Shown here piece by piece: positions 60,107-62,342 of a stretch of DNA of 64,000 nt. How positions within the stretch are numbered: position 1 is the stretch's first letter; the number at the start of each line of letters is the position of its first letter. The position numbers are program-made. The stretch is from Escherichia coli (lineage in GTDB: Bacteria; Pseudomonadota; Gammaproteobacteria; Enterobacterales; Enterobacteriaceae): assembly GCF_044647545.1 (NCBI RefSeq), contig NZ_CP172818.1; one strand, written 5' to 3'.

Positions 60107-62342
60107 TTATACATATCACTCTAAAATGTTTTTTCAATGTTACCCAAAGCGCGATTCTTTGCTAATATGTTCGATAACGAACATTTATGAACTTTAACGA
60201 AAGTGAATGAGGGCAGCATGGAAACCAAAGATCTGATTGTGATAGGTGGCGGCATCAATGGTGCTGGTATCGCGGCAGACGCCGCTGGACGCGGTTTATC
60301 CGTGCTGATGCTGGAGGCGCAGGATCTCGCTTGCGCGACCTCTTCCGCCAGTTCAAAACTCATTCACGGTGGCCTGCGCTACCTTGAGCACTATGAATTC
60401 CGCCTGGTCAGCGAGGCGCTGGCTGAACGTGAAGTGTTGCTGAAAATGGCTCCGCATATCGCCTTCCCGATGCGTTTTCGCCTGCCACATCGTCCGCATC
60501 TGCGCCCGGCGTGGATGATTCGCATTGGTCTGTTTATGTACGATCATCTGGGTAAACGCACCAGCCTGCCGGGATCAACCGGTTTGCGTTTTGGCGCAAA
60601 CTCAGTGTTAAAACCGGAAATTAAGCGCGGATTCGAATATTCTGACTGTTGGGTAGACGACGCCCGTCTGGTACTCGCCAACGCCCAGATGGTGGTACGT
60701 AAAGGCGGTGAAGTGCTTACTCGTACTCGTGCCACGTCTGCTCGCCGCGAAAACGGCCTGTGGATTGTGGAAGCAGAAGATATCGATACCGGCAAAAAAT
60801 ACACCTGGCAGGCGCGCGGCCTGGTGAACGCCACCGGCCCGTGGGTGAAACAGTTCTTCGACGAGGGGATGCATCTGCCTTCGCCTTATGGCATTCGCCT
60901 GATCAAAGGCAGCCATATTGTGGTGCCACGCGTGCATACCCAGAAGCAAGCCTACATTCTGCAAAACGAAGATAAACGTATTGTGTTCGTGATCCCGTGG
61001 ATGGACGAGTTTTCCATCATCGGCACCACCGATGTGGAATACAAAGGCGATCCGAAAGCGGTGAAGATTGAAGAGAGTGAAATCAATTACCTGCTGAAAG
61101 TGTATAACGCGCACTTTAAAAAACAGCTTAGCCGTGACGATATCGTCTGGACCTATTCCGGTGTGCGTCCGCTGTGTGATGATGAGTCCGACTCGCCGCA
61201 GGCTATTACCCGTGATTACACCCTTGATATCCATGATGAAAACGGCAAAGCCCCGCTGCTGTCGGTATTCGGCGGTAAGCTGACCACCTACCGCAAACTG
61301 GCGGAACATGCGCTGGAAAAACTGACGCCGTATTATCAGGGTATTGGCCCGGCGTGGACGAAAGAGAGCGTGCTGCCGGGAGGTGCCATTGAAGGCGACC
61401 GCGACGATTATGCCGCTCGCCTGCGCCGCCGTTACCCGTTCCTGACTGAATCGCTGGCACGTCACTACGCACGCACTTACGGCAGCAACAGCGAACTGCT
61501 GCTCGGCAATGCGGGAGCGATAAGCGACCTCGGGGAAGATTTCGGTCATGAGTTCTACGAAGCGGAACTGAAATACCTGGTGGATCACGAATGGGTCCGT
61601 CGCGCCGACGATGCCCTGTGGCGTCGCACAAAACAAGGCATGTGGCTAAATGCGGATCAACAATCTCGTGTGAGTCAGTGGCTGGTGGAGTATACGCAGC
61701 AGAAGTTGTCGCTGGCGTCGTAAATTAACGTAAGGTGGCCAGGTCAGATTTCAATCTGACCTGAGACTGATGATAAACAAAAAAACTGCCTGATGCGCTA
61801 CGCTTATCAGGCCTACGTGGTTTATGCAATATATTGAATTTGCATGATTTTGTAGACAAAATAAGGCGTTCACGCAGCATCCGGCATAAACAAAGCGCAC
61901 TTCGTCAACAATCTGACCTACTTTTTGATTCAAGGAATTACCGCAAAGCCCACGCAATCATACCCAACGTAACAAAACTCAGACACATTACCCACTCGCC
62001 CAGAGAAAAATAGCAGTAATGCGCCCAGCGTCAGCATAAAGACGTTGAGTAGAAGATAAATTGTTGGTGTAAAGAGTAAATTGCAAAACTCAAGAATAGC
62101 GGCAAGCCCGGCCCCCAGCATGGCAACAACCGCTGCCAAAAATTGCGCCAGTATGGGGATGCCAAAAAAAGTCATTACCAGCGAGGTCAAAATCCATTTT
62201 CCGTTTTGCATTATTCTTTCCATTCTTGCTGAATGGCGAAATTATACTCCCCGATAACCCTCGCCCCCTCTGGACACTTTTCCTAAATAAAGGCGAAAAA
62301 AAACGGGACCTTTTGGCCCCGTTCTGTTTTTTAGCGAACTTA

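What the first reader, a model, noticed from the sequence alone, without database searches (positions are those of the whole stretch)
61724..62339. glpD-glgP spacer: stem-loop, two REP elements and a small hydrophobic ORF
Seen: directly after glpD there is a perfect 8-bp stem-loop (61741-61762) with no T-run, then two REP-like elements in opposite orientation (61788-61816, 61865-61887), then a 97-codon minus-strand ORF (61930-62223) encoding a very hydrophobic peptide, then the glgP terminator. Established: BIME/REP arrays stabilise mRNA 3' ends; K-12 annotates yzgL at this position. Inference: whether the small ORF is expressed as a membrane peptide is open.
Basis: partly seen in the sequence, partly recalled or inferred. 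Interest (0 to 1): 0.25.

Follow-up and report, generated by a model that had tools for sequence, protein, structure and literature searches.

The report
Leftover stub of a deleted gene
The small hydrophobic reading frame between glpD and glgP is the leftover front end of a much larger membrane-anchored gene that a 2.85-kb deletion removed (the known yzgL pseudogene of E. coli K-12), sitting next to an ordinary repeat element and two ordinary hairpins, so the region is explained and not novel.

Summary
The glpD 3' hairpin has 10 bp rather than 8, and it has no U-run. A perfect Z-type REP and a degenerate Y REP lie in inverted orientation. A 97-codon, very hydrophobic minus-strand ORF follows, and then the glgP terminator.

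The ORF is not a gene in its own right. Its first 77 codons are the N-terminus (about three of six membrane helices) of a 502-aa membrane-anchored PstS-like binding protein. That protein is intact in most E. coli and has full-length homologues in Salmonella, Klebsiella and other Enterobacterales. The last 20 codons come, out of frame, from the 3' end of the last gene of the same 3-4-gene island (O-island 133 of O157).

The window equals an intact FDA1276/ST648-type allele minus 2,853 bp, and the deleted segment is bounded by a 9-nt direct repeat (CACTCGCCC). K-12 yzgL has the same junction, and RefSeq marks it as a pseudogene. The junction form occurs in 1,260 of 5,426 complete genomes.

The two REPs and their linker form one BIME-1 unit with an IHF-like site. 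That linker accounts for the only Rfam match (ES036).

The stub keeps its conserved -10 box, Shine-Dalgarno sequence and start codon. Expression therefore cannot be excluded, but nothing indicates function.

The parts
60203..61723 (+). glpD (aerobic glycerol-3-phosphate dehydrogenase). The longest ORF starts at 60203; the RefSeq-type start gives 501 aa.
61740..61763 (+). glpD 3' hairpin: 10-bp stem, UUCA loop, no U-tract. Allelic changes in the 3' arm keep pairing only as G.U on the + strand RNA.
61764..61919 (.). One complete BIME-1-type repeat unit of about 156 bp. It has paralogous copies elsewhere, for example in the entD-fepA spacer. The 661-bp spacer query finds a median of 18 places per E. 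coli genome; the sampled extra places cover only this unit.
   Evidence: PMC3333891
61788..61816 (+). Z-type REP, an exact palindromic unit (GCCTGATGCGCTACGCTTATCAGGCCTAC)
61809..61851 (-). BIME-1 long (L) linker. It carries the only Rfam match above gathering score in the window (ES036/CssrF, 43.6 bits). It contains the IHF-like site ATTCAATATATTG at 61827-61839 on the minus strand.
61852..61886 (-). Y-type REP, degenerate: the outer 3' arm is lost (GACAAAAT in place of GGCCGGAT)
61938..61992 (-). 3' remnant (last ~18 codons plus the TAA stop at 61938-61940) of the 199-aa last gene of the island. Inside the fusion ORF it is read in a different frame.
61993..62001 (.). Deletion junction: the single surviving copy of the 9-nt direct repeat CACTCGCCC that brackets the 2,853-bp segment in the intact FDA1276 allele
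61930..62223 (-). yzgL-type fusion ORF: 97 codons from the ATG at 62223, or 93 from the ATG at 62211. Residues 1-77 are the native N-terminus of the 502-aa membrane-anchored PstS-like protein. Residues 78-97 are a frame-shifted tail.
62216..62221 (-). Shine-Dalgarno-like GGAAAG, 4 nt upstream of the second ATG (62211); identical in 11 of the 12 alleles compared (O157 reads GGACAG)
62241..62246 (-). Perfect TATAAT -10 hexamer, invariant in all 12 alleles. No recognisable -35 box. A conserved G-rich block lies upstream of it.
62296..62324 (-). glgP intrinsic terminator: 10-bp stem at 62301-62324, AAAA loop, U8 tail
62340..64000 (-). glgP (glycogen phosphorylase), 3' part; the stop codon is at 62340-62342

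Best explanation
The spacer is what a short-direct-repeat deletion leaves behind in a variable accessory island between two convergent transcription units.

In most E. coli, glgP is followed on the same strand by a 3-4-gene operon (O-island 133 of O157:H7). Its first gene encodes a 502-aa protein with about six membrane helices and a PstS-like periplasmic binding domain. Its last gene encodes a 199-aa membrane protein and ends about 210 bp from the glpD stop, separated from it by a BIME-1 repeat.

In the lineage of this window, 2,853 bp between two copies of CACTCGCCC were lost. The loss fused codon 77 of the first gene to the last ~55 nt of the last gene, in the wrong frame. That produced a 97-codon ORF encoding the first ~3 membrane helices plus 20 unrelated residues. 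This is the yzgL pseudogene of K-12.

Shown here: the homology of both halves, the junction, the repeat, the loss of the binding domain, and the retention of the -10 box, SD and start codons.

Inferred: the stub may still be transcribed and translated at a low level from the operon's own signals, but it has no function of its own.

The other elements are ordinary 3'-end furniture. The hairpin belongs to the glpD mRNA and acts as a 3' stabiliser or weak terminator. The BIME-1 unit has an IHF-like site. glgP has its own intrinsic terminator.
For: Homology of the two halves. Window 61700-62001 is 100% identical to ST648 (L005) up to 302 bp past the point 24 bp before the glpD stop. Window 61993-62360 is 100% identical to the 5' end and upstream region of the FDA1276 (L002) 502-aa gene. 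The two blocks overlap by 9 nt.

The repeat. FDA1276 carries CACTCGCCC at both endpoints, 2,853 bp apart.

The full-length protein. It has PBP_like_2 at residues 246-482 (E = 5e-32) and matches PstS structures over residues 283-496. Hydrophobic stretches lie within residues 6-199. The stub matches no Pfam, NCBIfam or PHROG family.

The full-length gene is real and under constraint. It has ~500-aa homologues at 40-55% identity in Salmonella, Klebsiella, Intestinirhabdus, Budviciaceae and others. Its dN/dS within E. coli is 0.05-0.35.

The stub has no independent relatives. Every listed relative of the stub is 54-170 aa long. They are the same 93/97-aa fusion or other truncated N-terminal fragments of the large protein.

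Annotation and frequency. K-12 and strain 1190 have the same gap-free junction and the same 97-codon frame, and RefSeq marks both as 'incomplete; missing C-terminus'. The junction form is present in 1,260 of 5,426 complete genomes.

The island is dispensable. It is also destroyed by IS1, by internal stops and by frameshifts in other strains. yzgL is used as a neutral integration site in K-12 engineering (PMC6010332).

No divergence since the deletion. The window's stub shows no differences from intact alleles, and K-12 versus its nearest intact allele shows 1 synonymous and 5 non-synonymous changes.

The BIME. The whole 156-bp unit recurs in the entD-fepA spacer. The 661-bp spacer query finds a median of 18 places per genome, and the sampled extra places cover only the BIME part. 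BIME-1 is defined as Y plus Z1 plus a long linker with an IHF site (PMC3333891).
Against: The stub keeps everything needed for expression. The TATAAT box is invariant in all 12 alleles, the GGAAAG is identical in 11 of 12, and both ATG start codons are present in all 12.

The 93/97-aa frame is intact in nearly all listed occurrences: several thousand contigs carry it, against a few dozen shorter, mostly partial calls.

In K-12, the yzgL signal changed 2-fold in a Cpx-induction array (PMC2731931), so some transcript exists.

I could not obtain ribosome-profiling or proteomic data for it. A low-level membrane peptide with some effect is therefore not excluded.
Confidence: 0.88

Rival explanations
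1. The stub has become a functional small membrane protein. Under this reading, the three retained helices are expressed from the old operon signals and are kept by selection, for example by interacting with another membrane complex.
For: The expression signals are conserved. The frame is intact in almost all deletion-bearing genomes sampled. The K-12-type allele is nearly invariant (>=99% identical in 1,172 genomes). The transcript responds to Cpx induction (PMC2731931).
Against: The conservation of the signals and of the N-terminal codons is inherited from the intact gene and is shared with intact alleles. The 20-residue tail is an accidental frame. On the only lineage with measurable divergence (K-12 versus O145) there are 5 non-synonymous changes to 1 synonymous. 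Disrupting the locus is treated as neutral in strain construction (PMC6010332). Other strains lose the whole N-terminal region through IS1. No stand-alone homologues exist.
Confidence: 0.08
2. The short form is ancestral. Under this reading, the 502-aa gene arose when an island was inserted into a small membrane-protein gene.
For: None specific. The short form is common (23% of complete genomes).
Against: Full-length ~500-aa homologues with the same architecture occur across Enterobacterales at 40-55% identity. The stub's C-terminal 20 residues are the out-of-frame 3' end of another island gene. The intact allele shows the pre-deletion state, with a direct repeat at both ends.
Confidence: 0.01
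3. The deletion happened once and spread. Under this reading, its presence on different haplotypes reflects recombination that replaced the flanks right up to the junction, rather than repeated deletion at the direct repeat. This is a sub-question about history, not identity. The alternative is at least two independent deletions.
For: The junction is identical and gap-free in the K-12, 1190, window and L012 alleles. About 40 other 9-mers are repeated within the island, so this repeat is not an obvious hotspot. L012 has ST648-type flanks but the K-12-type base at +6 from the junction. K-12 and 1190 share a left-flank haplotype not seen in the four intact alleles compared.
Against: Haplotype-diagnostic SNPs lie 7, 10 and 14 nt to the left and 6, 20 and 32 nt to the right of the junction. 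The window's flanks have zero differences from intact alleles on both sides (273 and 343 bp). The K-12-type flank is at least 2% from any intact allele. A single recent deletion in an FDA1276-like genome between its perfect 9-nt repeat explains the window with one event.
Confidence: 0.4
4. The segment 61809-61851 on the minus strand is a dedicated small-RNA gene (Rfam ES036/CssrF).
For: It is the only Rfam match above gathering score in the 64-kb window (43.6 versus 37.6 bits).
Against: The matched segment is the linker plus the GTAGGCC edge of a REP inside a repeat unit. That unit recurs elsewhere in E. coli, including in the entD-fepA spacer. The model therefore recognises the BIME-1 linker, not a unique locus.
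Confidence: 0.05

Closest known systems
yzgL (b3427) pseudogene of E. coli K-12
   Same: It has the same position between glpD and glgP, the same strand, the same deletion junction and the same 97-codon (93 from the second ATG) frame. The products are 85% identical, and it has the same out-of-frame tail.
   Different: The window's allele is only 89% identical in DNA to K-12's. Its flanks are instead identical to intact FDA1276/ST648-type alleles. This exact allele is absent from the 5,426 complete RefSeq genomes, although its 93-aa product is on record in NCBI genomes.
Membrane-anchored PstS-family substrate-binding protein of the glpD-glgP island (O-island 133 of O157:H7; for example WP_122988709, WP_000982774)
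   Same: The first 77 residues, the start region and the upstream region are identical or nearly so.
   Different: The window lacks residues 78-502. That removes three of the roughly six helices and the whole PBP_like_2 domain. The two downstream genes are also missing.
BIME-1 / RIB-RIP repeat (Y REP + long L linker with IHF site + Z1 REP)
   Same: It has two REPs in inverted orientation and a conserved ~40-nt linker with an IHF-like site. It occurs as a single unit, lies between convergent 3' ends, and has paralogous copies elsewhere (PMC3333891).
   Different: The Y REP of this copy has lost its outer arm. I did not resolve whether the other REP is Z1 or Z2. IHF binding was not tested.
Rho-independent terminators
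   Same: The glgP hairpin, with its G+C-rich 10-bp stem and U8 tail, fits the type.
   Different: The glpD hairpin is A+U-rich and has no U-tract, so it does not fit. Alleles of the other glpD 3'-end type carry a different, G+C-rich hairpin followed by UAUUUGG.

Membership tests
yzgL pseudogene (K-12 b3427) | Lies between glpD and glgP on the glgP strand | tested here: met
yzgL pseudogene (K-12 b3427) | Same deletion junction and the same reading frame through it | tested here: met
   Gap-free alignment across the junction; 97-codon frame in both
yzgL pseudogene (K-12 b3427) | N-terminal fragment of a longer gene, annotated as incomplete | tested here: met
   RefSeq notes; homology to the 502-aa gene
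PstS-family periplasmic binding protein | Has the PBP_like_2 / PstS binding domain | tested here: not met
   The 97-aa ORF has no Pfam or NCBIfam hit. In the intact protein the domain lies at residues 246-482, which are deleted here
Bona fide small membrane protein gene | Stand-alone homologues conserved as short ORFs outside the deletion alleles | tested here: not met
   All 117 hits are the same fusion or other truncated N-terminal fragments, 54-170 aa long. The N-terminus is otherwise found on ~500-aa proteins
Bona fide small membrane protein gene | Evidence of translation | not testable with these tools
   No record found in the searchable literature or in the supplements held
Bona fide small membrane protein gene | Purifying selection on the short form | tested here: inconclusive
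   0 differences (window, 1190) or 1 synonymous / 5 non-synonymous (K-12) against the nearest intact allele; no statistical power
BIME-1 | Two REPs in inverted orientation, one of Y type and one of Z type | tested here: met
   The Y copy is degenerate. Z1 versus Z2 was not resolved
BIME-1 | Conserved long linker carrying an IHF site | tested here: met
   The linker is conserved in a paralogous copy and matches the Rfam ES036 model. ATTCAATATATTG matches 12 of 13 positions of WATCAANNNNTTR, a consensus I quote from memory
BIME-1 | Single unit, not a tandem array | tested here: met
   The linker occurs once in the spacer
BIME-1 | Binds IHF | not testable with these tools
   Requires a footprint or ChIP experiment
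Intrinsic terminator (glpD hairpin) | G+C-rich stem followed directly by a U-tract | tested here: not met
   The stem is stable (-15.9 kcal/mol), but AGACUGAUGAU follows it. The scan did not call it
Intrinsic terminator (glgP hairpin) | G+C-rich stem followed directly by a U-tract | tested here: met
   10-bp stem plus U8; the stem and tail are conserved in 12 alleles
Rfam RF02751 ES036 (CssrF) sRNA | Score above the gathering threshold | tested here: met
   43.6 versus 37.6 bits. The match is to the repeated BIME-1 linker, so it does not mark a unique sRNA gene

The most novel reading that the evidence does not exclude
The same repeat-bounded deletion has arisen more than once, or has been carried onto unrelated haplotypes by conversion right up to the junction. 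In this reading it persists at ~23% frequency because losing the island, or keeping a three-helix N-terminal peptide with intact expression signals, is advantageous. That would make yzgL a recently born small membrane protein rather than debris.
Probability: 0.07. Interest if true: 0.45.

Novelty: already known. Interest (0 to 1): 0.12.

Why it matters
It matters mainly as a caution. A long, clean, strongly hydrophobic ORF with good start signals can be nothing more than the decapitated membrane anchor of a deleted gene. Conservation and dN/dS comparisons across strains then report selection on the intact ancestor, not on the stub.

The case also documents how a variable E. coli island (hotspot glp-glg, O-island 133) is lost: through a 9-nt direct repeat here, and through IS1, internal stops and frameshifts in other strains.

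The history of the junction, which sits on several divergent haplotypes, is a small open population-genetic question.

Tried and rejected
- Extended repeat at the endpoints. I looked for an extended direct repeat at the deletion endpoints in ST648, O145, GF131 and O157. Local alignments were no better than shuffles. The exact 9-nt repeat appeared only when the FDA1276-type right end was examined.
- dN/dS on the stub. It is uninformative, because divergence since the deletion is zero or near zero.
- Defence-system or phage origin of the island. PADLOC gave no hits. PHROGs gave only a generic phosphate-binding match.
- Translation evidence for yzgL. The 22 papers that mention the name give only array data, neutral-site use and a computational sRNA-target list. 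One Ribo-seq paper's supplements hold no entry, and another has no supplements held.
- The window's own genome. The exact-protein look-up for P0001 failed. A near-identical allele was found in LR890661.1.
- Literature on ES036/CssrF. A search for CssrF returned nothing relevant.
- The sub-threshold ylbH-leader match at 62229-62333. It is the glgP terminator region and scored 22.9 against a threshold of 50 bits. I treat it as chance.
- The promoter-like and terminator-like hits of the consensus scan. Their numbers were no higher than in shuffles.
- One literature query failed because a search term was too short.
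Full report
**Observation.** The window carries glpD on the + strand (stop codon ending at 61723) and the 3' part of glgP on the minus strand (stop at 62340-62342).

- The hairpin after glpD is CAGGTCAGAT/UUCA/AUCUGACCUG at 61740-61763. It has ten perfect pairs rather than eight. Its energy is -15.9 kcal/mol and z = -4.6 against shuffles, and no U-run follows it.
- The REP at 61788-61816 matches its search pattern exactly. That pattern is the window's own 29-mer, which I recognised from memory as a Z-type REP. No match is expected by chance, and one other copy with three mismatches lies at 28258-28286.
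- The inverted REP at about 61852-61886 is degenerate. Its outer arm is mutated relative to K-12 and to a paralogous copy, and alone it folds no better than shuffles.
- The minus-strand ORF 61930-62223 has 97 codons and a GRAVY of 1.32.
- The glgP terminator is a 10-bp stem at 62301-62324 followed by U8.
- ORF length proves nothing by itself. Frames of 342 and 210 aa run antisense to glpD and glgP in the same list.

**What the ORF is.** In K-12 the same position holds yzgL, which RefSeq marks 'incomplete; missing C-terminus'. Strain 1190 carries the same remnant under the name 'phosphate ABC transporter substrate-binding protein'.

In many other strains the spacer is 3-4 kb longer. On the glgP strand it carries three to four genes:
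- a 502-aa 'PstS family' gene;
- a variable middle segment (a 330-aa PstS-like gene, a 268-aa binding-domain gene, or one or two hypothetical genes);
- a 199- or 201-aa hypothetical gene.

In O157:H7 EDL933 the gene Z4789, which I place in this island from memory of the EDL933 gene order, is listed under O-island 133 (PMC2907692).

Window 61700-62001 is 100% identical to ST648 from just inside glpD to a point inside the 3' end of the 199-aa gene. Window 61993-62360 is 100% identical to the 5' end and upstream region of the 502-aa gene of FDA1276.

The ORF is therefore a fusion:
- Residues 1-77 (MERIMQNGKW...FFSGRV) are the native N-terminus of the 502-aa protein.
- Residues 78-97 (GNVSEFCYVGYDCVGFAVIP) are the last ~55 nt of the 199-aa gene read in another frame. 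That gene's own stop, at 61938-61940, lies 8 nt from the ORF's stop.

The full-length protein has hydrophobic stretches within residues 6-199. Its PBP_like_2 domain lies at 246-482 (E = 5e-32), and this region matches solved PstS structures. The stub keeps about three helices and no binding domain, and it matches no family in Pfam, NCBIfam or PHROGs.

The direction of change is clear. Full-length ~500-aa homologues at 40-55% identity occur in Salmonella, Klebsiella, E. albertii, Intestinirhabdus, Budviciaceae, Leminorella and Rahnella. The gene evolves under purifying selection within E. coli, with dN/dS of 0.05-0.35. By contrast, every listed relative of the stub is 54-170 aa long: the same fusion or other truncated N-terminal fragments.

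**How the deletion happened.** The intact FDA1276 allele carries CACTCGCCC at both endpoints, 2,853 bp apart, and the window retains one copy at 61993-62001. The 13TMH22 and B7A right ends even read CACTCGCCCC, which matches the ST648-type left end over 10 nt. This is the signature of short-direct-repeat deletion, by replication slippage or another RecA-independent exchange. The mechanism is an inference from the anatomy.

About 40 other 9-mers are also repeated within the 3.4-kb island. Four other intact alleles lack the repeat. It is therefore sufficient for the deletion but not an obvious hotspot.

**Distribution and history.** The junction form occurs in 1,260 of 5,426 complete E. coli genomes.
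- About 1,172 of these carry the K-12-type allele. These are at least 99% identical to one another over 343 bp, and the nearest intact allele is 98.0% identical.
- The rest are 1190-type.
- No complete genome has the window's allele. The best full-length match is 92.0%.
- The window's 93-aa product is nonetheless on record in NCBI genomes. A sister allele in LR890661.1 differs at 9 of 661 positions.

All of these alleles share the junction without gaps. Even so, each allele's flanks are closest to a different intact haplotype:
- window: 0 differences from FDA1276 on the right (343 bp), and 0 from ST648 and GF131 on the left (273 bp);
- 1190: 2 differences from PEC1020;
- K-12: 10 differences from O145.

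SNPs that are diagnostic of haplotype lie within 6-14 nt of the junction on both sides.

Two histories fit these data. Either the deletion occurred at least twice at the repeat, or it occurred once and its flanks were later converted right up to the heterology boundary. I lean slightly towards recurrence, because one event in an FDA1276-like genome reproduces the window's spacer exactly. I cannot settle the question with 13 alleles.

**Is the stub functional?** Upstream of the ORF, the -10 hexamer TATAAT (62246-62241) is invariant in all 12 alleles compared, intact and deleted. The GGAAAG four nucleotides before the second ATG is identical in 11 of 12, and both ATGs are present in all 12. The remnant can therefore plausibly be transcribed and translated. 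A K-12 array study lists yzgL as changed 2-fold on Cpx induction (PMC2731931).

Several observations argue against a function of its own:
- The conserved signals and codons are inherited from the intact gene.
- In the 70 codons from the second ATG, the window and 1190 stubs have zero differences from intact alleles. K-12 differs from O145 by 1 synonymous and 5 non-synonymous changes.
- The tail is an accidental frame.
- The locus is used as a neutral integration site (PMC6010332).
- Other strains lose the region altogether through IS1, or cripple the island by internal stops and frameshifts.

The remnant is short, young and almost invariant. I found no ribosome-profiling or proteomic record.

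**The repeat element.** The two REPs are parts of one unit. Window 61764-61919 aligns end to end with a copy in the entD-fepA spacer of another strain, and that copy has an intact Y REP. When the 661-bp spacer is used as query, it finds a median of 18 places per genome, and the sampled extra places cover only this part.

The architecture is a Z-type REP, a ~40-nt conserved linker and an inverted Y REP, present as a single unit between convergent 3' ends. This is BIME-1 as defined in PMC3333891, whose L linker frequently carries an IHF site. Here ATTCAATATATTG (61839-61827, minus strand) matches 12 of 13 positions of the IHF consensus, which I quote from memory.

The only Rfam match above threshold in the whole window, ES036/CssrF at 61809-61851, is this linker plus the edge of the REP. 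I read it as a model of the repeat, not as a unique sRNA gene. The two REPs can also pair with each other (-33 kcal/mol, z about -2.7 on either strand).

**The glpD hairpin.** It lies just outside the repeat unit. In K-12, O145 and O157 one pair, and in strain 1190 two pairs, change from A-U or G-C to G.U as read on the + strand. The same changes would give A.C mismatches on the other strand. This weakly supports a structure in the glpD mRNA. With only two variable positions it is suggestive, no more. Because there is no U-tract, it does not meet the definition of an intrinsic terminator. Its most likely role is as a 3' stabiliser or weak pause site ahead of the BIME (inference).

Alleles that carry the 201-aa version of the last island gene lack both this hairpin and the BIME. 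Directly after the glpD stop they have a different, G+C-rich hairpin followed by UAUUUGG.

**Verdict.** Novelty is nil apart from a rare allele and an unresolved point of population history.

Noticed in passing
L005:2466-5594, L004:6238-9844, L006-L011 (island absent from the window; its position corresponds to window 61993-62001): Alleles of the intact island's 502-aa gene within E. coli are extraordinarily divergent (dS 0.3-0.6) yet constrained (dN/dS 0.05-0.35). The middle genes are exchanged like cassettes, and the last gene comes in two types that do not align at the DNA level. No defence-system model matches. The function of this 6-TM + PstS-like family, which is widespread in Enterobacterales, is unknown.
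   Followed up: partly
window 61724-61763 versus L006:2184-2240, L007, L009, L011: The sequence immediately after the glpD stop codon is dimorphic across strains. One type has an A+U-rich hairpin plus a BIME-1. The other has a G+C-rich hairpin (GCCCGGTTG...CAACCGGGC) followed by TATTTGG and no BIME. The haplotype boundary falls exactly at the stop codon.
   Followed up: partly
window 61752-61762 and 61909-61919: The 11-mer CAATCTGACCT occurs twice: in the 3' arm of the glpD hairpin and at the right end of the BIME-1 unit. The hairpin's 5' arm could therefore pair with either copy, and the second pairing would enclose the whole BIME. The repeat is not perfectly conserved in K-12.
   Followed up: no
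L013:2236-3445 (strain HUM3355): This is an independent route to losing the island. An IS1A sits where the 502-aa and middle genes should be, and it leaves only a 5'-truncated last gene. The yzgL-type N-terminal stub is absent here.
   Followed up: partly
L005:5592-5594 and the equivalent CDS starts in L002, L004, L006-L011: RefSeq starts the 502-aa CDS at an ATA codon, one codon upstream of the conserved ATG (the translation begins IMQN...). A further in-frame ATG lies 12 nt upstream (window 62223). The true start has not been determined.
   Followed up: no
window 62247-62290 (minus strand): A block upstream of the invariant TATAAT, GGAAAAGTGTCCAGA(G/A)GGGGC(G/A)AGGG, is nearly invariant across otherwise divergent alleles, and there is no -35 hexamer. 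It could be the binding site of an activator for the island operon.
   Followed up: no
window 28258-28286: A solo Z-type REP (three mismatches to the 61788 copy) lies in another intergenic spot of the window.
   Followed up: no
L005:5720-8166: In strain ST648, whose left flank is identical to the window, glgP itself is annotated as frameshifted.
   Followed up: no
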